Shown here: positions 8,046 to 23,051 of the stretch, piece after piece | Numbering within the stretch: position 1 is the stretch's first letter | Layout of the letters: each line of letters opens with the position of its first letter | Assembly: GCA_001567355.1 (NCBI GenBank) | Contig: JYNZ01000003.1 | Coordinates: 466,263-530,262 of the forward strand | Reading direction: 5' to 3' | Length of the DNA: 64,000 nucleotides | Origin: a candidate division WS6 bacterium OLB20 | GTDB lineage: Bacteria > Patescibacteriota > Dojkabacteria > B142 > OLB20 | Position numbers and translations under genes: made by a program | The notes under the pieces: model-generated | The model's database searches: none | The model's input: the letters and a program-made list of their open reading frames with translations, nothing else | Told to the model about the DNA's origin: nothing

Positions 8046-10406
8046 ATGACTGCCCAACCAGACTATGTCACAGTAGAGATGCTTGTTGCGCTGAGCAAGT
8101 ATCTGCGTCTGACCAACTATATCGGCGCCTCACAGCTGTATCTCAAGGACAACTTTCTGCTCGAAGAGGAGCTGCGCAAAGAACATATCAAGGAGCGCAT
8201 CCTCGGCCACTGGGGGACTGTCCCCGGACTGAACTTTATTTATGCATGTCTTAACATTGTCCTGCAGCATCACAGGCAGGAGATGATGTTTATTGCCGGA
8301 CCGGGACACGGTTACCCTGCCCTGCTTGCCAACCTGTTTGTCGAAGGCAGCCTTGGCGAGTACTATCCCGAATACAGACACTCGCGCAGCGGCTTTGAAA
8401 AGGTCATCCGCAACTTCAGCTGGCCTTCGGGCTTTCCCAGTCACTCCAATCCCGAGACACCGGGTGCGATCCACGAAGGCGGCGAGCTGGGATATGCACT
8501 CTCAACAGCTTTTGGCGCGGCATTTGATAACCACGGACTCATTGTTGCCTGCGTTGTCGGTGACGGCGAGGCAGAGACAGGTCCGACCGCAACCGCCTGG
8601 CACAGCACCAAGTTTCTTAATCCGGCCCGCGACGGAGCAGTTCTGCCGATAGTACATATCAACCAGTACAAGATCTCGGGTCCCACGATCTATGGCACGA
8701 TGACTGAAGAAGAACTTACCCTTCTGTTCAGAGGGTACGGCTACGACCCCGTTATCGTCTCAGGCGACATGCTGTATGAACCGATGCTCAAGGCACTTGA
8801 TGATGCGGTGCAGAAGATACACGCAATCCAGGAACGTGCCCGGATCGGTAATCTTGAGGACCGGCCGCGTTTCCCGGTTATCCTCCTGGTCAGCAAAAAG
8901 GGCTGGACTGGACCAAAGGAGTACAAGGGAATGCCGATTGAAGACTCATTCCGCTCGCATGGAATCCCTCTGGAACATGTTCATGACGATGATGTGCAGT
9001 TCAACATTCTCAAGGAGTGGCTCGAAAGCTACAACATCCGCGAACTGCTTGATGACAGCTTTGAACCTATTGCAGAAATTAAAGACCTGATACCTGACAG
9101 TGATCTGAGGATGGGAATGACAAAGCATGGCAATGGTGGCAGGATCAGGCGTCCGCTTGAACTTCCCGATCTCAAAACGCTTGAACTGGCAATCGAACAG
9201 CCGGGTAAGACCAAGGCAAGCAACATGGGCAAACTGGGTGAATATCTTCGCGATACACTGCGCGGCAACCCGCATACCTTCCGCGTCATGTCACCTGATG
9301 AGACAGAGTCCAACAAGATGCATGCGCTGTTTGAGGTTACAAAGCGCGGTTACATGTGGCCCGTTCCGCACGGATCAGAGAACATCGGACCTGACGGAAG
9401 AGTTATGGAAATTCTCTCTGAACACACTTTGCAGGGCTGGCTTCAGGGTTACCTGCTGACCGGCAGACACGGTATCTTTATCAGCTACGAGGCATTCATG
9501 ATGATCGTGGCCAGCATGGTTGACCAGTATGTAAAGTTTCTCACCCAGATGGACAACATCAGCTGGCGCGAACCGGTGCCGTCGATGAATATCGTTCTTA
9601 CCAGCACTGCATGGAGACAGGACCATAACGGATTTTCACATCAGAACCCCGGTTTTATCAGCTCGGTACTCGACGACCAGAGCAACAAGATCAATGTCCA
9701 CTTCCCTGCTGATGCAAATATGCTGATCGCTACAATGGAGGAATGTTTCAACTCTACAAACGTGGTCAACGTGATAGTTACAGGTAAACGCGATCTGCCG
9801 CAGTACATGACTGTAGCCGAAGCCCGGGAGCACATCTCGCGAGGCATTAACCGCTGGCAGTGGGCAGGCAACAGCGACACCGATCCTGATGTCGTTTTTG
9901 CGGCCAGCGGAGATTATGCAACGTTTGAGGCACTTGCTGCCATAAAACTGCTTAAGGAGCATGCACCCGAGCTGCATACCCGTTTTGTAAATGTCAGCGA
10001 ACTGACATGCTTCGGCATCGGCGATAACAACAATATGAGCAGGATCACTCTTGACGGATTCCGCGAGCTGTTCACTGCAGACCGCGAAATCATCTACACC
10101 TACCATGGCTACCCGGAGGACATCAAACACCTCATCTTCAACCACCCTGATGCCAGACGTTTTCATATCCGCGGCTATAGCGAGCATGGCACCACAACAA
10201 CACCGTTTGACATGCAGGTCGTAAACAAAACAGACCGTTACCATCTTGCGCTGGAGGCAATTGATTATGCCTGTGCTCACAACAACGAGCTGCTGGCCAG
10301 GCGCGGTGAGGCTGAAGAATACTTCAAGAGCATGCTGAAGAAACATGAGGAATACATTGTCCAGCATGGTGTAGACATTCCCGAAGTCCGTGAATTTAAG
10401 CTCTGA
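8046..10406 (+). CDS. xfp: Xylulose-5-phosphate/fructose-6-phosphate phosphoketolase
   Basis: Signatures GHWGTVPGLNFIY and GPGHGYPALLANLFVEGS, with a TPP-enzyme length of about 790 aa. ATG at 8046 is preferred over the TTG at 8013. Confidence 0.9.
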   Translation: MTAQPDYVTVEMLVALSKYLRLTNYIGASQLYLKDNFLLEEELRKEHIKERILGHWGTVPGLNFIYACLNIVLQHHRQEMMFIAGPGHGYPALLANLFVEGSLGEYYPEYRHSRSGFEKVIRNFSWPSGFPSHSNPETPGAIHEGGELGYALSTAFGAAFDNHGLIVACVVGDGEAETGPTATAWHSTKFLNPARDGAVLPIVHINQYKISGPTIYGTMTEEELTLLFRGYGYDPVIVSGDMLYEPMLKALDDAVQKIHAIQERARIGNLEDRPRFPVILLVSKKGWTGPKEYKGMPIEDSFRSHGIPLEHVHDDDVQFNILKEWLESYNIRELLDDSFEPIAEIKDLIPDSDLRMGMTKHGNGGRIRRPLELPDLKTLELAIEQPGKTKASNMGKLGEYLRDTLRGNPHTFRVMSPDETESNKMHALFEVTKRGYMWPVPHGSENIGPDGRVMEILSEHTLQGWLQGYLLTGRHGIFISYEAFMMIVASMVDQYVKFLTQMDNISWREPVPSMNIVLTSTAWRQDHNGFSHQNPGFISSVLDDQSNKINVHFPADANMLIATMEECFNSTNVVNVIVTGKRDLPQYMTVAEAREHISRGINRWQWAGNSDTDPDVVFAASGDYATFEALAAIKLLKEHAPELHTRFVNVSELTCFGIGDNNNMSRITLDGFRELFTADREIIYTYHGYPEDIKHLIFNHPDARRFHIRGYSEHGTTTTPFDMQVVNKTDRYHLALEAIDYACAHNNELLARRGEAEEYFKSMLKKHEEYIVQHGVDIPEVREFKL

Positions 10407-11569
10407 TGGCAACGCTTGTTATCAATGCCGGCAGCACAACGATCAAGTACAAGCTGTTTGACAGCTCGCTGCTCGAAATCCTGTCCGGTGTAATCGACAA
10501 TACGTCTCACGGTGTGACAAGCGAGCTGAAGAAGCATGGAAAGACCTATGAATGGGAACTTAGCGCAGATGAGTTTCAGCATCCTGCACAGGTTCTCATG
10601 AAGGAGCTGACCGATTACCATGTCGATCTAATTGGTTTTCGGGTCGTTCACGGCGGCGAAGAGTTTATTCATCCGACACGGATCACTGATGACGTTCTTA
10701 AAAGCCTGGACGGGTTAAGCGACCTGGCTCCGCTGCATAACCCGCCCGCGGTTCGTGTCATCAGCGATTTCAGGCAGGTCATGCCTGATGTTCCCATGTA
10801 TGCGGTTTTTGATACAGCATTTCACGCCAGTATGCCACCTGAGTCATATATTTACTCAATCCCCTATCATTACTATCAGGAAGACAAGATCCGAAAGTAT
10901 GGCTTTCACGGTACTTCACATAAATATGTATACAACCGCATCCGCCAGCTTGAAGAACGTACAGGAAAAGTAATCACCTGCCATCTGGGCGGTGGTGCCA
11001 GTATAACCGCAATCCGCGACGGCTCTGTGCTTGATACCTCAATGGGCTTTACTCCCCTTGAAGGACTTACGATGGCGACCCGCAGCGGTGATATTGATGC
11101 GGGTGTGGTACTGCATATGGCACGCACACTAGGCATGTCACCTGACCGGATCAACTCGGTCCTCAACCGGGAAAGCGGGCTGCTTGGTCTATCCGGCACA
11201 ACGTCAGATATGCGCACACTGCTCGAGCAGGAACAGGATGGTGACCAGCGGGCCGGACTGGCAATAGAAACGTACATCTACGACATCAAGCGCTACATCG
11301 GCAGCTACACAGCCGTGCTTGAAGGCCTTGATGCACTAGTGTTTACGGCTGGTGTCGGTCAGGGATCCGACGTCATCCGCAAACGTATCTGCGCAGGACT
11401 TGATATCTTCGGCATCAGGATCGATGACGCTGCCAACGACGGCGCCCACAATGTCAAAACCGAGCTGAAGATAAGCTCTAAAGACTCTATCCCTGTCTGG
11501 GTCATACCCACTAATGAAGAATGGCAGATAGCCGAGGAGGTGACTGCCGCACACGCTGAGTATTCCTGA
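10406..11569 (+). CDS. ackA: Acetate kinase
   Basis: MATLVINAGSTTIKYKLF is the acetate/propionate kinase N-terminal motif. The start overlaps the xfp stop by 1 nt, forming a phosphoketolase-acetate kinase operon. Confidence 0.9.
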   Translation: MATLVINAGSTTIKYKLFDSSLLEILSGVIDNTSHGVTSELKKHGKTYEWELSADEFQHPAQVLMKELTDYHVDLIGFRVVHGGEEFIHPTRITDDVLKSLDGLSDLAPLHNPPAVRVISDFRQVMPDVPMYAVFDTAFHASMPPESYIYSIPYHYYQEDKIRKYGFHGTSHKYVYNRIRQLEERTGKVITCHLGGGASITAIRDGSVLDTSMGFTPLEGLTMATRSGDIDAGVVLHMARTLGMSPDRINSVLNRESGLLGLSGTTSDMRTLLEQEQDGDQRAGLAIETYIYDIKRYIGSYTAVLEGLDALVFTAGVGQGSDVIRKRICAGLDIFGIRIDDAANDGAHNVKTELKISSKDSIPVWVIPTNEEWQIAEEVTAAHAEYS

Positions 11570-18397: not shown

Positions 18398-18817
18398 ATG
18401 CAAGAGAATTCAGATCAGGGACAAACAGAGACGATGGCCTCGCAGCAGCAGACACAACGGGCAAGAAAAGGGATTCCGGTTGTACGCTATAGCGTCATCG
18501 CTGTGCTGCTCATTTTTGTACTGGTGATCATTGCAGGTATTGTCAGCGGGCTCAGTAACACTGTCCGACTCGAAGACAGTGACGGAAGCTGTCGCACAGA
18601 TCAGTGCATCATATTTGATGCGTTTCAGGAAGACGACTTTGCTACCTGGGAGGTCCAGCCCGGTTGGCCGCTGTTTCTGAGTGTGAGCGGATCTGCTGGT
18701 AACAAGGGTGAAGGCGTGACAATCCGCTGCCCGGTAAGCCCTTCGGGACCGGAGCTTATGACAAAACTGCTGATGCTGCTCGATCGCGAAGCAGTGCAGG
18801 ACTGCCGCGTTGAGTGA
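18398..18817 (+). CDS. Hypothetical single-TM protein
   Basis: ORF with one TM helix (VIAVLLIFVLVIIAGIV). Confidence 0.35.
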   Translation: MQENSDQGQTETMASQQQTQRARKGIPVVRYSVIAVLLIFVLVIIAGIVSGLSNTVRLEDSDGSCRTDQCIIFDAFQEDDFATWEVQPGWPLFLSVSGSAGNKGEGVTIRCPVSPSGPELMTKLLMLLDREAVQDCRVE

Positions 18818-19033
18818 TCAGCCGTTCTCTCTGATAAATTCATCCAGCAGGGCACGCGCCTCTTCCAGTGACAGCGACCTGTCGTAGAGCCTGATACGCT
18901 GCTCCATTGTCAGTCCGGGTATCCCATCCACATACGCCCCGAACTCCCAGCGTTCCTGCTCCTCGAGAATCGCCCGTGCCCGCTCCTCGGGTATACCTTC
19001 TCCCTTGTTGTCGTGCGGCGCTAGATCATTCAT
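18818..19033 (-). CDS. Hypothetical small protein
   Basis: 71-aa ORF directly abutting 18398..18817; no recognised motif. Confidence 0.3.
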   Translation of the reverse strand: MNDLAPHDNKGEGIPEERARAILEEQERWEFGAYVDGIPGLTMEQRIRLYDRSLSLEEARALLDEFIRENG

Positions 19034-19077
19034 GCCATAATCCTACCACACCGCTCGTGTTTTTCTGTGCTATAGTG

Positions 19078-20378
19078 ATGCAGACTTATTTTGGAAATTT
19101 CAACATGCCTGTCAATTTTCCCCTACCCCGCAAAGATGAGCTGGCTCCTGAGGAGCAGCAGGCCTCTAACGGCAGACTGATCAAGCGTATTACGTTTTTC
19201 GGTGATTCTGCCATACCTGAGGACGATCCGATCTATAAATCAGTCTGGGAGGCAGCACGGATTCTGGCGGAACGCGGATTTGCGATCGTAAACGGTGGCG
19301 GTCCCGGCATTATGAAGGCAGCCACAGACGGAGCCGAGTCTGTCAACGGTGATACTGTCGCAGTGTACTGGCAGCCGAAGCTGGCGTCTTTTTTTGAAGG
19401 AAAAAACCTGGCAAATGTAACTGACGAGTCGGAAACGTTCTCAAACTATCTGATCAGAACCCTTGGTCTGATCGAACATGGTGATGCATATGTAGTCTGC
19501 AAAGGCGGTACCGGAACTGTGTCCGAGTTCGGGATGGTGTGGGCACTGGCCAAGCTGTACTACGGCTGCCACAAACCGGTTATCCTCTACGGCGAGTTCT
19601 GGGACGGACTGATCGAAGCGTTTCAGCGTGATATGTACATTGACGACATCGAACGTGGTGTACTGTATCAGGCAACTACTCCTGAGGAGATCGTAAACAT
19701 TATCGATAAGCATGAACTGCAGATCCAGCATTGCGGCAAGCGCAGATTTTCCGGTGATGAGGCAGGTTTTGTGCTGGGCGCCGAGGTCAAACTGACCCAG
19801 GAGACACATGATGCCATCGCATCAAGTTATCATGGAGAGTATGCCGGACGTCTTGTTGCTCAGGAGCAGATGGAGGAGTTTATGTCGCTTGTTCATCCGC
19901 CTGCAAAGGTGCTCGACGTTGGCACCGGCCCTGGTCATGATGCCAGGTTTCTGTCAGAAAAATACTCTGTGACCGGCATCGAGATTTCGCAAAAGTTTGC
20001 CGAGATCGCCAAATTTGAAACCCCGAGATGGAAATCATCAACGCCGATGTAGTCACCTACGATCTCGGCAGTAATATCTACAAGGGCATCTGGGCACGTA
20101 ATTCCATTCATCACATCCCCGAACGTGACCTGGACCCGGTATTTAAAAAGCTTGCTGACGCTCTGGTGGAAGGCGGGTATCTGTTTGTTATTGTCCGCGA
20201 AGGCGAAGGCGAATTTGTCGAGGAGGATGTTAAAAACTATCTGCGTATTCAGAAGTTCTACCACCTTTTTACGGAAGACGAGCTGCGCAGCAGAGGTGAG
20301 AAAGCCGGACTCACGCTCGAACGTATCGACCATAACAAACGCAGCCATAAATGGCTGGTTGGCATCTTCCGGAAGTAA
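19078..20378 (+). CDS. LOG-family (TIGR00730 Rossmann nucleotide-binding) domain fused to a class I SAM-dependent methyltransferase; frameshifted near 20030-20050
   Basis: LOG motifs GGGPGIMKAA and KGGTGTVSEFGMVWALAKL. The MTase motif I VLDVGTGPGHD lies in ORF 18907..20052. Motifs II and III (INADVVTYDL, LVEGGYLFVIVRE) continue in ORF 20028..20378 in another frame. Confidence 0.6.
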
Positions 20379-20636
20379 TCAGCGTTTGATATAGAGTACA
20401 AACAGAATAGCAAGACTCATGGTGATCTGCACCAGCGCTGATGTTTTGACCCACCAGTAAAAGCGTTTTGACGGTTTTCCGCCGGTTATGCCTTTAAACT
20501 TCAGCGAACGCTTCGTTATCTTCCAGTAGGCCTCCGGATTAAAGTACAGCCAGCCGCTTGTGATCCCGAGCAGCAGTGCAAACGCGATCAGGAAGTAACG
20601 GATAAACTGTACAAACAGAAATGTGCTGTAATCCAT
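20379..20636 (-). CDS. Hypothetical small membrane protein
   Basis: Two predicted TM helices. Confidence 0.3.
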   Translation of the reverse strand: MDYSTFLFVQFIRYFLIAFALLLGITSGWLYFNPEAYWKITKRSLKFKGITGGKPSKRFYWWVKTSALVQITMSLAILFVLYIKR

Positions 20637-20661: not shown

Positions 20662-21621
20662 TCAGGTCATCGCCAGCAGCTCGCGGGCAGTTTCATACAT
20701 CAGAGGGCGTTCGTTCTGCTTCTGCTGATACCACCACTCTGCTCCCCACAGCCATATCTCAGTTACAGGCAGGGTCCTGACCGCCTGTATGTTTTCACGC
20801 AGACGCATCGGTGACATGGATCTGATCTGCTCTTCGATGCTGTCAGGAGGCAGATGCGAACGTTCTGAGGGTCCCCAGGGTTCCGCCTGCAGTTCGGTGA
20901 CAAGCACCGGCTTTGCCGCAGCAGCAATCTTTTCTTTGAGGTTTGCCGGGTCGATACCCGGATACTGATAGCGCCGCAACTGCCGGGCATACGAAGCCGG
21001 GTAGATATTGATCCCGACTTCATCACCATACAGCGCAGCCTTGCGCCATCGACTGTGCTCTGCAGTATCTGTCATCAGCACCGGCCTGTCATCAAGTCTG
21101 CGCACCGCAGCAACTGCCTGGTTGACGTACTCCTCTGTCAGCGGAAATTCACTGTGGCCGAACTGCCAGAAAGGTTCGTTTTCGATCTGCCAGCGTACGA
21201 CAGCGGAATTGTCGCGGTAATGGTTGACCACATTTTCTATGAAATAGATTGAACGTTCTGCCAGGTAGTGTTCGCCCTTATCCAGCGCCCAGGCCGGCTC
21301 ATGATACTCGGGCCAGCGCGGAACCTTGCGTCCGGCTGCGACAGTTACAGCACACTCCGCCTCTGCTGCAGTTTTGATGATGCTGTCCAGCTCTGTAAAA
21401 TCGAACAGATGCGGTTCCTGTTCGATTTCGTCCCAGTAGGCACACACACGCAATGCGCTAAACGGAAAGTCGGCAAGCAGGTCATGCAAAACCCGACCGG
21501 GATCAAGCCCGAGCTCGCGGCAGTATTTCTGACTGAATGTTATACCCCATCTTGTTGCCATACTAAAGACTAGCACATCAGGTCTGTATGACTGCAACGC
21601 GGTGCGGGTGTAATAGCCCAA
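20662..21621 (-). CDS. Glycoside hydrolase, clan GH-A (GH5/cellulase-like)
   Basis: Acid/base motif VRWQIENEP and a nucleophile-like VLVTELQAEPWG. Confidence 0.5.
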   Translation of the reverse strand: MGYYTRTALQSYRPDVLVFSMATRWGITFSQKYCRELGLDPGRVLHDLLADFPFSALRVCAYWDEIEQEPHLFDFTELDSIIKTAAEAECAVTVAAGRKVPRWPEYHEPAWALDKGEHYLAERSIYFIENVVNHYRDNSAVVRWQIENEPFWQFGHSEFPLTEEYVNQAVAAVRRLDDRPVLMTDTAEHSRWRKAALYGDEVGINIYPASYARQLRRYQYPGIDPANLKEKIAAAAKPVLVTELQAEPWGPSERSHLPPDSIEEQIRSMSPMRLRENIQAVRTLPVTEIWLWGAEWWYQQKQNERPLMYETARELLAMT

Positions 21622-21720: not shown

Positions 21721-22389
21721 TTAATAGATCTTTGCGCCATTCTTAATGGTCAGTGAATAACCGCTTTTGACAAGGATATGGTAATTCTGAAAGTCAAAGT
21801 CAATGTTCCCCTCAACTACACAGTTCTGTTCGATGATCCAATTGCTGCTTTGTACAGGAGTACATCTTGGAGCAAATTTGTACGCAGCGTAGCCAAGATA
21901 ACTTCCTGACTGTCTAACAAAATAGTGTATGTGCTTAAAGCCATTTGCGCATCCTTTATCACTTATCGTTCCAATGACTTGCCCCTCAATAACATATTCG
22001 CCATCTTCTGCAGCGTTTGGGGCATTAGCATCGATATGAACATAGTTGACATCAACACCATTTTCTCCAACTATTCTCAGGTATTGTGCGGAGCATCCAT
22101 CGTTTAAATAGTCTACAGTTCCGGAGATACTTGCTAATGCATCATAGCCATAGCAGGATTGATAATCATTACCATAATATGGATTCCCTTCATTACCAGC
22201 TATGTCTAGTTCATTATTCGATCCAGCATGTGCCCTGCCAATATTTACATTGTATTCCTCTCCCGTTTTCACAAACGCACCATCCACAAAATTGCAGGGC
22301 TGTCCCACATATACCAATGCATGAGAAGAAGACGATGTCTGACTAAAAATAATGACCGCAAGGATAAAAACTACGCTTCTAGATCTCAT
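21721..22389 (-). CDS. Secreted M23 family peptidase (LytM domain)
   Basis: Signal peptide MRSRSVVFILAVIIFSQTSSSSHA, then VNYVHIDANAP...GQVIGTISDKG...FKHIHYFV, matching M23 HxxxD ... HxH. Confidence 0.55.
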   Translation of the reverse strand: MRSRSVVFILAVIIFSQTSSSSHALVYVGQPCNFVDGAFVKTGEEYNVNIGRAHAGSNNELDIAGNEGNPYYGNDYQSCYGYDALASISGTVDYLNDGCSAQYLRIVGENGVDVNYVHIDANAPNAAEDGEYVIEGQVIGTISDKGCANGFKHIHYFVRQSGSYLGYAAYKFAPRCTPVQSSNWIIEQNCVVEGNIDFDFQNYHILVKSGYSLTIKNGAKIY

Positions 22390-23051
22390 GATTGACGAAT
22401 TGATGAAAGAATTGTTTCAACTTCTGACATAAGTTGTGGATCCTGTTTAAGTGAATCAATGCTATCTTCAAGCTCTAACGTAATATAACCGACAACAGTT
22501 AGCGTGCTGAGTGCTATTGCTTTGTTCTTAGATGGACCACATACCTGTAGTCCCCACCGCTCTGTCTCAACTATGTAATATTCACCGGTTCCATTTGTTA
22601 CTTTGATTGCATCTTCTGTAATGATGACCGCCAGATCGCTTTCACTAGAGAAATGGCATCCCTTTCCACCAATATTTCCGTTAAGTATTCTTAATACTGC
22701 GCGATCATTTCTAAGAGTAATCTCTTCACTTTCTTCATCCTTCGGTGTATTCACCTCAAGTTCCCAGTCTGAAGGAAAATCCAATGAGAAGGGTTTCGCG
22801 AAAGGATAAATTGAAGTATATGTTTGATTAGCATTTACCGTAGGATTCGGCGTCTCACTCACTACCAGATAAGAATCAGGCTGGTCTTCTGCAAGCGTGA
22901 CTGTCGGTGTAGGATAGTCCGCTGTCCGCATCTCATTCTGAACCATCGTCGTAACTGCATATCCTCCAGCAAGAGCGAAAAGACAGCCTGTGGCAAACGA
23001 TGCAGCCAGCAGTACAGAACGATGTCCAGGATTATTCATGTCTATCTTCAT
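22386..23051 (-). CDS. Secreted hypothetical protein
   Basis: N-terminal signal/TM; overlaps the next gene by 4 nt (operon). Confidence 0.4.
   Translation of the reverse strand: MKIDMNNPGHRSVLLAASFATGCLFALAGGYAVTTMVQNEMRTADYPTPTVTLAEDQPDSYLVVSETPNPTVNANQTYTSIYPFAKPFSLDFPSDWELEVNTPKDEESEEITLRNDRAVLRILNGNIGGKGCHFSSESDLAVIITEDAIKVTNGTGEYYIVETERWGLQVCGPSKNKAIALSTLTVVGYITLELEDSIDSLKQDPQLMSEVETILSSIRQS

What the first reader, a model, noticed from the sequence alone, without database searches (positions are those of the whole stretch)
19078..20378. LOG-family domain fused to a SAM-dependent methyltransferase (apparent frameshift in the MTase half)
LOG (cytokinin riboside 5'-monophosphate phosphoribohydrolase-like, PGGxGTxxE) domains act on nucleotides. 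Fusion to a class I MTase suggests a two-step nucleotide or nucleobase modification enzyme that I do not recognise as a described architecture.

The fusion is interrupted by a 1-nt frame change between MTase motifs I and II near aaatttgaaacccc, possibly a sequencing error.
Basis: partly seen in the sequence, partly recalled or inferred. Interest (0 to 1): 0.55.

Follow-up and report, generated by a model that had tools for sequence, protein, structure and literature searches.

The report
Broken LOG–methyltransferase fusion gene of Dojkabacteria
This is a real two-domain gene, a nucleotide-cleaving LOG-type enzyme joined to a methyltransferase, that is conserved across the uncultivated Dojkabacteria, appears tied to feeding nucleotide ribose into sugar metabolism, and in this genome is split by the loss of one A.

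Summary
Window 19105-20378 (+) encodes a type-II-LOG-like SLOG domain followed by a class I SAM methyltransferase (MTase). The MTase is split between two frames.

- **Source:** candidate division WS6 bacterium OLB20 (Dojkabacteria, CPR).
- **Distribution:** more than 250 intact ~425-aa homologues with the same architecture, all Dojkabacteria and only generically annotated. 47 are GTDB species representatives.
- **Frameshift:** homologues read ..KFENPE..; the window lacks one A of an A4 run at 20018-20020. The same 315-aa plus 116-aa split occurs in a separately deposited run (SRR29904083). OLB20 was IonTorrent-sequenced, so an artefact is not excluded. No recoding signals were found.
- **New context:** the SLOG half is orthologous (43-49% identity) to stand-alone SLOGs of Microgenomates. 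These sit between rpe and tktN/tktC in rpiB–TIM–PGK–GAPDH operons and are sometimes fused to Rpe. rpe directly precedes the fusion in 27 of 47 Dojkabacteria loci.
- **SLOG function (inferred):** the LOG catalytic Arg and Glu are invariant. I infer a nucleotide phosphoribohydrolase that supplies ribose-5-phosphate to the pentose-phosphate/phosphoketolase route.
- **MTase function:** it looks catalytically competent and is closest to phosphoethanolamine N-MTases, but is not one. Its substrate is unknown.

Verdict: an uncharacterised, lineage-specific variant of known enzyme kinds, of moderate interest.

The parts
19105..20052 (+). ORF1 as it stands: 315 aa. It holds the SLOG/LOG domain, a linker, the first third of the MTase, and 10 out-of-frame residues (TPRWKSSTPM) before TAG.
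   Evidence: Identical to P0003, 'putative lysine decarboxylase [candidate division WS6 bacterium OLB20]'.
19183..19725 (+). SLOG domain, type-II-LOG-like.
   Evidence: PF18306 and PF03641 above gathering score. phmmer to PDB type-II LOGs: 5zi9 1.3e-17, 5wq3 3.6e-16, 1wek 1e-14. Mean pairwise identity in the family is 73%.
19294..19314 (+). GGGPGIM loop. It aligns with the conserved GGGPGxM loop of type-II LOGs.
   Evidence: Aligned to GGGPGAM/GGGPGLM of 5zi9 and 5wq3. Invariant in the family.
19456..19458 (+). AGA codon for the conserved Arg that corresponds to the LOG catalytic Arg.
   Evidence: Invariant (R127 in the numbering). It lies 23 residues before the motif Glu, the same spacing as R99/E122 of CgLOG.
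19501..19527 (+). KGGTGTVSE, the family's version of PGGxGTxxE. The catalytic Glu codon is at 19525-19527.
   Evidence: The K variant is shared with the stand-alone SLOGs of pentose-phosphate operons.
19726..19860 (+). Inter-domain linker / probable N-terminal lid of the MTase. It contains the conserved GDExGF.
   Evidence: Low model confidence for residues 223-247. Mean identity 41%. E228 and F231 are invariant.
19861..20019 (+). MTase part 1 in frame 1: motif I VLDVGTGPG (19909-19935) and the beta-2 acidic residue (TGIEIS).
   Evidence: Methyltransf_25 positions 1-38. Alignment.
20018..20020 (+). AAA run. Relatives have AAAA here (GAA AAC = E N), so one A is missing.
   Evidence: DNA comparison with L001 and L002. 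Protein consensus FENP. tblastn HSPs switch from frame 1 to frame 3 here.
20050..20052 (+). Premature TAG stop of ORF1, caused by the shift.
20019..20378 (+). MTase part 2 in the -1 frame: motif III NADVV, WARNSIHH (His-His codons at 20109-20114), VREGEGE, FYHLF, RSHKW, and stop TAA at 20376-78. The ORF as called starts at ATG 20028 (116 aa).
   Evidence: Methyltransf_23 and Methyltransf_25 C-terminal halves. All family-invariant residues are intact. Identity to L001 is 83% after the shift and 80% before it.

Best explanation
The locus is the WS6 OLB20 copy of a Dojkabacteria-wide bifunctional gene.

N-terminal half: a type-II-LOG-like SLOG enzyme. I infer that it hydrolyses the N-glycosidic bond of nucleoside 5'-monophosphates, releasing the base and ribose-5-phosphate. 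The ribose-5-phosphate would then be passed through RpiB, Rpe and transketolase, or in this clade through phosphoketolase and acetate kinase, to yield energy and carbon from scavenged nucleotides.

C-terminal half: a catalytically competent class I SAM-dependent small-molecule methyltransferase, probably an N-methyltransferase. My weakly held guess is that it acts on the base moiety handled by the first half, at low flux. One SAM per pentose would cost about as much ATP as the pentose yields.

In this genome the gene is interrupted by loss of one A in an A4 run. That leaves a 315-aa protein with an intact SLOG domain and an MTase stump, plus a separate 116-aa ORF. I judge this more likely a recent real mutation than an artefact.

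Shown: the architecture, its conservation, the indel, the gene context, and the conserved catalytic residues. Inferred: both enzymatic activities, the metabolic role, and whether the indel is real.
For: Architecture and distribution:
- 223 hits to the repaired protein and 251 hits to a deep-branch member all carry PF18306/PF03641 plus Methyltransf domains on polypeptides of ~405-440 aa.
- 47 GTDB species representatives carry it.
- At 50% clustering the family is a single cluster. No LOG–MTase fusion was seen elsewhere among the best 150 of 1.84 billion representatives.
- Both halves are under strong constraint: 73% and 60% mean pairwise identity.

LOG chemistry:
- The best PDB relatives are type-II LOGs.
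- GGGPGxM, the Arg, and the Glu 23 residues later are invariant. These two residues are the ones held critical for LOG catalysis (PMC8234997).

Link to the pentose-phosphate pathway:
- Stand-alone orthologues (43-49% identity, same KGGTGTxSE/FEG/HKP signature) lie on one strand with rpiB, TIM, PGK, GAPDH, rpe, tktN/tktC, pfkB and FBA.
- rpe is immediately upstream in 26 of 32 stand-alone loci and 27 of 47 fusion loci. tkt is immediately downstream in 23 of 34 stand-alone loci and in 5 deep-branch fusion loci.
- Rpe–SLOG fusions exist: P0139 and L080.
- The window itself has phosphoketolase and acetate kinase 9 kb upstream.
- Dojkabacteria are reported to lack nucleotide synthesis and are proposed to ferment the ribose of nucleotides (PMC5113843).

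MTase:
- Motif I, the beta-2 acidic residue, the motif III Asp and a His aligned with the catalytic His of Plasmodium PMT are conserved.
- Foldseek places the domain among small-molecule MTases.

Indel:
- locate it.
- The identical split ORFs occur in SRR29904083.
Against: - No biochemical data exist for any member.
- NCBIfam LOG models score far below their cut-offs: TIGR00730 55 vs 96 bits, CtkRMPhLog 31 vs 300. The best Pfam hit is 'SLOG cluster 4', a group that also contains sensor domains.
- In the window's own clade the rpe adjacency is lost. No rpe, rpiB or tkt lies within the 64 kb.
- No MTase homologue accompanies the stand-alone SLOGs, so the MTase is not part of the ancestral module and its substrate cannot be read from context.
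- The AlphaFold model gives no confident domain packing (pTM 0.49).
- Reality of the indel: OLB genomes come from IonTorrent data with 'persistent frameshifts'. The downstream part shows no decay. I could not obtain the DNA, platform or origin of SRR29904083.
Confidence: 0.55

Rival explanations
1. The frameshift is an IonTorrent homopolymer undercall. In the organism the gene is intact and encodes a normal ~424-aa fusion.
For: - The OLB genomes were assembled from IonTorrent reads. The authors ran a script against 'persistent frameshifts, common in IonTorrent data' (PMC4821891).
- The missing base lies in an A run next to a C4 run.
- All family-invariant residues downstream are intact, and identity to the nearest relative is as high after the shift as before it (83% vs 80%).
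- Every one of more than 250 homologues is in frame.
Against: - The same 315-aa and 116-aa ORFs, overlapping by 25 nt and with the same neighbours, are called on a 3.5-kb Logan contig of a different SRA run, SRR29904083.
- The run is only 3-4 bases long.
- None of about 14 other syntenic genes between 5.7 and 34.7 kb shows a frame change.
- No intact allele of this species is in the 5.8-billion-protein collection. The next hit is 81% identical.
Confidence: 0.3
2. The SLOG half is a non-catalytic ligand sensor, as in Thoeris ThsA or TRPM channels. It would switch the methyltransferase on or off in response to a nucleotide, and the MTase would be the only enzyme.
For: - The best Pfam model is PF18306 'SLOG cluster 4'.
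- SLOG domains are documented nucleotide-signal sensors (abstracts listed).
- NCBIfam LOG equivalogs are not reached.
Against: - The catalytic Arg and Glu and the phosphate loop of LOG enzymes are invariant.
- The closest solved relatives are enzymes.
- Orthologues occur without any MTase, inside operons of pentose-phosphate and glycolytic enzymes, and are fused to Rpe. That fits a metabolic enzyme, not a regulator of an MTase.
Confidence: 0.12
3. The MTase half is a SAM-sensing regulatory module for the nucleosidase, analogous to the ppGpp-binding accessory domains of PpnN. It would not be a working methyltransferase.
For: - Stoichiometric methylation would be energetically wasteful for a catabolic route (my inference).
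- The ancestral module works without the MTase.
- According to the abstract of a bioRxiv preprint (10.1101/2025.04.13.648610, listed), the LOG-family nucleosidase PpnN is a target of the alarmones (p)ppGpp. That its accessory domains bind the alarmone is from my own knowledge.
Against: Conservation extends well beyond the SAM pocket to the substrate side. W339, R341, H345, H346, R374, E375, E379, Y388, H396 and H424/W426 are invariant, and the catalytic-His position of PMTs is kept.
Confidence: 0.12
4. The MTase half is a phosphoethanolamine N-methyltransferase that makes phosphocholine.
For: The best PDB sequence matches are Plasmodium PMTs (2.3e-17), with RDSxLH aligned.
Against: - The region that carries the PMT phosphate ligands is not conserved. 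The Arg-179 position is variable, and the C-terminal segment with Lys-247 is absent (alignment; residue roles from my own knowledge of PfPMT).
- Foldseek ranks generic small-molecule MTases first.
- No choline-pathway genes were seen in any context.
Confidence: 0.04
5. The frame change is bypassed by programmed -1 ribosomal frameshifting or by transcriptional slippage.
For: A -1 shift after GAA would restore exactly FENPEMEI.
Against: - There is no X XXY YYZ heptamer in the zero frame.
- The A run has only 3 bases.
- No downstream RNA structure was found (z = -0.74).
- No relative shares the shift.
Confidence: 0.02

Closest known systems
Type-II LOG phosphoribohydrolases (PDB 5wq3, 5zi9, 1wek/TT1465; B. 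pertussis BP1253)
   Same: - Rossmannoid SLOG fold.
- FG(D/S)-type start, GGGPGxM loop, and catalytic Arg and Glu 23 residues apart in GGxGTxxE.
- BP1253 accepts AMP, GMP and CMP and is linked to a methylated purine product, 6-O-methylguanine.
   Different: - K replaces P in the motif, and the Arg of type-II 'FGSAR' is absent.
- Scores are below the NCBIfam LOG cut-offs.
- It is fused to an MTase.
- Its gene context is the pentose-phosphate pathway, not cytokinin synthesis.
PpnN (YgdH), the E. coli pyrimidine/purine nucleotide 5'-monophosphate nucleosidase
   Same: It is a LOG-family nucleosidase tied to ribose-5-phosphate (titles and abstracts listed). That it converts ordinary NMPs to base plus ribose-5-phosphate, and that its catalytic domain is flanked by accessory domains, is from my own knowledge. 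This is the functional analogue of what I propose.
   Different: By my own knowledge, PpnN's accessory domains are ppGpp-binding DUFs, not an MTase. No sequence comparison with PpnN was run here, so the resemblance is functional and is an inference.
Stand-alone SLOGs and Rpe–SLOG fusions of Microgenomates (Woese-, Ames-, Collier-, Beckwithbacteria)
   Same: - 43-49% identity and the same KGGTGTxSE / FEG / HKPxILyGxFW signature.
- The same rpe-upstream and tkt-downstream position.
   Different: They have no MTase domain, and none lies within 10 kb. They are embedded in a longer glycolysis/pentose-phosphate operon.
Phosphoethanolamine N-methyltransferases (Plasmodium PMT, 4mwz/3uj6)
   Same: This is the closest solved MTase by sequence (2e-17). 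It shares the SAM motifs, and the His of RDSxLH is aligned.
   Different: The phosphobase-binding residues and the C-terminal segment are not conserved. The N-terminal lid differs. The window protein is not a member.
Small-molecule N-methyltransferases such as the toxoflavin N-MTase (5ufm) and RPA2492 (3e23)
   Same: These are the top structural matches (Foldseek E about 1e-12 to 1e-13). 5ufm methylates ring nitrogens of a purine-like heterocycle.
   Different: Identity is only 19-23%. The match is no better than to many other class I MTases, so it has no diagnostic value.

Membership tests
LOG / Lysine_decarbox family (PF03641; SLOG superfamily) | Pfam model hit above gathering score | tested here: met
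   PF03641 scores 43.6 bits against a cut-off of 27. PF18306 scores 46.7 against 26.3.
LOG / Lysine_decarbox family (PF03641; SLOG superfamily) | PGGxGTxxE motif | tested here: inconclusive
   GGTGTxSE is invariant, but the first residue is K, not P.
LOG / Lysine_decarbox family (PF03641; SLOG superfamily) | Fully conserved catalytic Arg and Glu (R99/E122 in CgLOG) | tested here: met
   The Arg (codon 19456-58) and Glu (19525-27) are invariant. They are 23 residues apart, as in CgLOG and 5zi9.
LOG / Lysine_decarbox family (PF03641; SLOG superfamily) | Phosphoribohydrolase activity on nucleoside 5'-monophosphates | not testable with these tools
   This needs an enzyme assay.
Cytokinin riboside 5'-monophosphate phosphoribohydrolase (NCBIfam NF058542 equivalog) / TIGR00730 | Score above the curated cut-off | tested here: not met
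   NF058542 scores 31-32 bits against 300. TIGR00730 scores 54-58 against 96.
Class I SAM-dependent methyltransferase (Methyltransf_11/23/25) | Pfam domain hit | tested here: met
   In the window the domain is split. Methyltransf_25 covers positions 1-38 (24.9 bits) and 46-97 (20.7 bits), and Methyltransf_23 scores 27.8 against 27. Intact homologues carry PF13649, PF08241 and PF13489.
Class I SAM-dependent methyltransferase (Methyltransf_11/23/25) | SAM-binding motifs: motif I GxGxG, acidic residue at the end of beta-2, Asp of motif III | tested here: met
   VLDxGxGxG is present. The E/D in TG(I/V/L)(E/D) is conserved in all 18 aligned sequences, and D324 is nearly invariant.
Phosphoethanolamine N-methyltransferase | Catalytic His of the RDxxLH segment | tested here: met
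   The invariant H346 aligns with that His.
Phosphoethanolamine N-methyltransferase | Phosphate-binding Arg/Lys and the C-terminal segment | tested here: not met
   The aligned Arg position is variable, and the protein ends about 50 residues before the PMT C-terminus (alignment). The residue roles are from my own knowledge.
Programmed -1 ribosomal frameshift site | Slippery heptamer in the zero frame, a downstream stimulatory structure, and conservation in relatives | tested here: not met
   There is no heptamer. The fold z-score is -0.74. All relatives are in frame.
Pseudogene by frameshift | A frame change relative to intact orthologues that is real in the organism | tested here: inconclusive
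   The frame change is shown. It is seen in two assemblies.

The most novel reading that the evidence does not exclude
The fusion is a SAM-gated switch on nucleotide catabolism or a small biosynthetic line. The MTase methylates the base of a purine nucleotide, and the LOG half accepts only the modified nucleotide, as cytokinin LOGs accept only N6-substituted AMP. The LOG half then releases ribose-5-phosphate plus a methylated purine that is excreted or used as a signal towards the host. This would be a new bifunctional enzyme chemistry. It would also be the first function assigned to a protein that is among the most conserved in Dojkabacteria.
Probability: 0.15. Interest if true: 0.7.

Novelty: new variant of a known kind. 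Interest (0 to 1): 0.45.

Why it matters
CPR bacteria such as Dojkabacteria cannot make nucleotides and are thought to live on the ribose of scavenged nucleotides. The only route discussed so far is AMP phosphorylase / R15P isomerase / RuBisCO (PMC5113843).

A LOG-type nucleosidase wedged between rpe and tkt in dozens of Microgenomates and Dojkabacteria genomes is a simple, testable alternative entry point (NMP to ribose-5-phosphate). As far as my searches went, it has not been described.

The added methyltransferase is fixed across a whole candidate phylum and is about as conserved as phosphoketolase. Some methylation step is therefore tightly coupled to that reaction. Finding its substrate would assign a function to a widespread 'hypothetical' protein and could reveal a new modified-base metabolite.

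The frameshift itself matters mainly as an annotation issue: the deposited 'putative lysine decarboxylase' is a truncated misnomer.

Tried and rejected
- **Both alleles in JGI metagenomes.** I scanned for the junction with A3 or A4 and found 0 matches.
- **DNA of the SRR29904083 contig.** It could not be fetched because the file is too large. The base at the junction in that sample is therefore inferred only from the called ORFs.
- **LOG–MTase fusions outside Dojkabacteria.** The five 'two-stretch' hits of the representative search are LOG–LOG or MTase–MTase tandems. P0278 looked like a distant fusion but belongs to a deep Dojkabacteria branch.
- **Stand-alone MTase relative P0159.** It lies in an unrelated, uninformative context. 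The names of cluster members were empty or generic.
- **An MTase gene near stand-alone SLOGs.** None was found within 10 kb.
- **NCBIfam.** No family reached its cut-off.
- **AlphaFold model.** The domains are confident, but their relative position is not (pTM 0.49). No active-site juxtaposition can be claimed.
- **Foldseek.** The PDB search gave only generic MTase and LOG hits. afdb50 was unavailable.
- **Shine-Dalgarno test for ORF2.** It is uninformative because the organism hardly uses SD motifs.
- **Programmed frameshift.** Rejected.
- **Burroughs et al. 2015 (SLOG classification).** The paper could not be read.
- **Literature search on a LOG/PpnN role in CPR.** Nothing relevant was found.
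Full report
**1. What is in the sequence**

On the + strand, ORF 18907..20052 (frame 1) and ORF 20028..20378 (one frame back) overlap by 25 nt.

Pfam results:
- The first ORF has a SLOG/LOG domain: PF18306 at 3.4e-12 and PF03641 at 4.1e-11, both above gathering score.
- It ends with the first 38 positions of Methyltransf_25.
- The second ORF has positions 46-97 of the same model and the C-terminal half of Methyltransf_23.

NCBIfam gives only sub-threshold hits to TIGR00730, TIGR00725 and a cytokinin-LOG equivalog.

**2. Origin and true gene limits**

I searched a conceptually repaired 433-aa protein against 5.8 billion proteins. It returned:
- P0003, 315 aa and 100% identical, named 'putative lysine decarboxylase [candidate division WS6 bacterium OLB20]', on a 744,746-nt contig.
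- More than 200 intact proteins of ~425 aa with the same LOG plus MTase architecture, 58-81% identical. The named ones are nearly all Candidatus Dojkabacteria.

OLB20 is placed in Candidatus Dojkabacteria by NCBI taxonomy. Homologue N-termini (MPxxxxLP) and P0003 set the start at ATG 19105, not 19078.

**3. The frameshift**

- Homologues read ..IAKFENPE(M/V)EIINAD.. across the junction.
- The 81% relative has TTTGAAAACCCGGAA where the window has TTTGAAA-CCCCGAG. One A of an A4 run is missing at 20018-20020.
- tblastn with four relatives switches from frame 1 to frame 3 exactly there. None of about 14 other syntenic genes between 5.7 and 34.7 kb changes frame.
- Identity to the closest relative is 80% before and 83% after the shift. 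Every family-invariant residue downstream is intact. The lesion is therefore very recent, an artefact, or bypassed.
- Bypass is unlikely. There is no slippery heptamer, no downstream structure (z = -0.74), and no relative with the shift.

For an artefact: the OLB genomes come from IonTorrent data, and the authors had to correct 'persistent frameshifts' (PMC4821891).

Against an artefact: the identical pair of ORFs (315 aa, then 116 aa overlapping by 25 nt) with the same neighbours (139 aa, 71 aa, 85 aa, 299 aa) is called on a 3.5-kb Logan contig from another SRA run, SRR29904083. No intact allele of this species exists in the protein collection. I could not get that contig's DNA or its platform.

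My estimate is about 65% real, 30% artefact, and the rest other explanations. The 'own RBS' criterion cannot be applied, because genes in this window almost never have a Shine-Dalgarno motif.

**4. How widespread the fusion is**

- A genome scan found the full fusion in 47 GTDB species representatives. These are Dojkabacteria or MAGs with placeholder names.
- A deep-branch member (P0278, 45-57% identical to the rest) again retrieves only fusions.
- In a profile-free scan of 1.84 billion 50%-cluster representatives, the whole family collapses into one cluster (P0042). The next hits are stand-alone SLOGs (40-47% identity) and stand-alone MTases (30-37%).
- The few two-domain hits in that scan are LOG–LOG or MTase–MTase tandems.

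The architecture is thus lineage-specific but universal within the lineage. Both halves are strongly constrained: mean pairwise identity is 73% for SLOG, 60% for the MTase and 41% for the linker. In the window-to-L010 comparison the fusion is as conserved (~73%) as phosphoketolase, and more conserved than AckA or the ABC permease.

**5. The SLOG half**

- The closest solved proteins are type-II LOGs: 5zi9 at 1.3e-17, 5wq3 at 3.6e-16, 1wek at 1e-14 (profile search).
- The GGGPGxM loop, an Arg in NYxxRT, and the Glu of (K)GGTGTxSE 23 residues later are invariant.
- An Arg and a Glu with this spacing (R99/E122 in CgLOG) are the two residues held critical for LOG catalysis (PMC8234997).
- Differences from type-II LOGs are K for P in the motif and loss of the Arg of 'FGSAR'.

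**6. Gene context, the most informative result**

Stand-alone SLOGs with the same signature (KGGTGTxSE, FEG, HKPxILyGxFW) occur in Microgenomates: Woese-, Ames-, Collier- and Beckwithbacteria.

Clustering all ORFs of 89 loci, with Pfam confirmation, shows them on one strand with these genes:
- rpiB, TIM, PGK and GAPDH
- rpe
- tktN/tktC
- a PfkB kinase, class I FBA and a 2-hydroxyacid dehydrogenase

Adjacency counts:

| Feature | Stand-alone SLOG loci | Fusion loci |
|---|---|---|
| rpe immediately upstream | 26 of 32 | 27 of 47 |
| tkt immediately downstream | 23 of 34 | 5 (deep branches L007, L045, L046, L048, L049) |

The five deep-branch fusion loci read rpiB–rpe–fusion–tktN–tktC. Rpe–SLOG gene fusions also exist: P0139 and L080. 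One ENA contig has rpiB–rpe–SLOG–pfkB–...–cytidylate kinase.

This is classic evidence, from gene neighbourhood and a Rosetta-stone fusion, that the SLOG works with the non-oxidative pentose-phosphate pathway. The one reaction a LOG-type enzyme can contribute there is NMP + H2O → base + ribose-5-phosphate. By my own knowledge this is the reaction of E. coli PpnN; one search shows only that PpnN is a nucleosidase linked to ribose-5-phosphate and (p)ppGpp.

This fits published reconstructions in which Dojkabacteria lack nucleotide synthesis and may ferment the ribose of nucleotides (PMC5113843).

In the window's own clade (L001, L002, L009, L010) the rpe adjacency is lost. The flanks there are a Zn/Mn-type ABC transporter, small ORFs without Pfam hits, and a GH-like gene. 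No rpe, rpiB or tkt lies in the 64 kb. Xu5P/F6P phosphoketolase and acetate kinase do lie 9 kb upstream.

**7. The MTase half**

- The SAM motifs are intact.
- The best sequence matches in the PDB are Plasmodium phosphoethanolamine N-MTases (2e-17), with the family's invariant His aligned to the catalytic His of RDSxLH.
- The phosphate-binding Arg position is variable, and the PMT C-terminal segment is missing. It is therefore not a PMT.
- The AlphaFold model (pLDDT 78, pTM 0.49, linker disordered) matches generic small-molecule MTases. The top hits are toxoflavin N-MTase 5ufm and RPA2492 3e23, and 1wek for the SLOG half.
- Many invariant residues lie on the substrate side (W339, R341, H345, H346, R374, E375, E379, Y388, H396, H424, W426). 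This argues for a real enzyme with a defined small substrate.
- No MTase accompanies the stand-alone SLOGs, so context says nothing about the substrate.

By Rosetta-stone logic the likeliest substrate is the base or nucleotide handled by the SLOG half. A precedent of sorts is that the type-II LOG BP1253 of B. pertussis yields 6-O-methylguanine in vivo (PMC6864091).

My own energetic argument is that one SAM per pentose would cancel the ATP gain. The methylation is therefore probably low-flux or regulatory rather than stoichiometric with bulk catabolism.

**8. Verdict**

The fusion is real and uncharacterised, but it is common in its lineage and generically annotated. Whether the indel is a sequencing error is open, leaning towards real.
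- The functional proposal is inferred, not shown: a nucleotide phosphoribohydrolase feeding ribose-5-phosphate to the pentose-phosphate/phosphoketolase route, plus an attached small-molecule N-MTase of unknown substrate.
- It is a new variant of known enzyme kinds. The more interesting by-product is the conserved rpe–SLOG–tkt module of CPR bacteria.

Noticed in passing
loci L056-L088, L005 (Microgenomates); L007, L045-L049 (deep Dojkabacteria): There is a conserved same-strand module rpiB – (TIM – PGK – GAPDH) – rpe – SLOG – tktN – tktC – pfkB – FBA. The LOG-like gene always sits between rpe and tkt, and Rpe–SLOG fused proteins occur (L080:9296-10582; P0139). This looks like an undescribed nucleotide-to-ribose-5-phosphate entry into the CPR pentose-phosphate pathway.
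   Followed up: yes
window 8046-10406 and 10406-11569 (+): Xu5P/F6P phosphoketolase (XFP_N/XFP/XFP_C) is directly followed by acetate kinase. This is a pentose-phosphate-to-acetate, ATP-yielding pair, syntenic in L002, L009 and L010.
   Followed up: partly
window-wide, start regions of 22 genes between 8 and 31 kb: Almost no gene has a Shine-Dalgarno-like motif upstream of its start codon. Translation initiation in this organism seems largely SD-independent.
   Followed up: partly
L027:3303-4991 and 17 other Dojkabacteria loci; L007:11989-13218: A RecJ-like DHH/DHHA1/RecJ_OB exonuclease lies about 1.5 kb upstream of the fusion on the same strand in 18 of 51 loci. In deep-branch loci a beta-CASP/RMMBL protein, which I take to be RNase J-like, follows tkt. 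By my own knowledge both enzyme types release 5'-mononucleotides, the presumed LOG substrates. The association may be coincidental.
   Followed up: no
window 18398-18817 (+), 18818-19033 (-), 20379-20636 (-), 22386-23051 (-): These small or medium ORFs flank the gene and have no Pfam hit. The 139-aa, 71-aa and 85-aa ORFs are also called in the SRR29904083 contig. The 139-aa ORF and a ~72-aa minus-strand ORF in the same position are seen in L001.
   Followed up: no
window 21721-22389 (-) and 20662-21621 (-): A Peptidase_M23 protein and a weakly GH10/GH42-like glycoside hydrolase lie downstream on the opposite strand. These are possible cell-wall or glycan-degrading functions, typical of an episymbiont.
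   Followed up: no
record titles of L011, L014, L016, L056-L059 and others: Many MAGs that carry the Dojkabacteria fusion or the Microgenomates-type operon are labelled 'uncultured Candidatus Saccharibacteria' or 'Gammaproteobacteria/Pseudomonadales' in their records. These are probably placeholder or wrong taxonomy.
   Followed up: no
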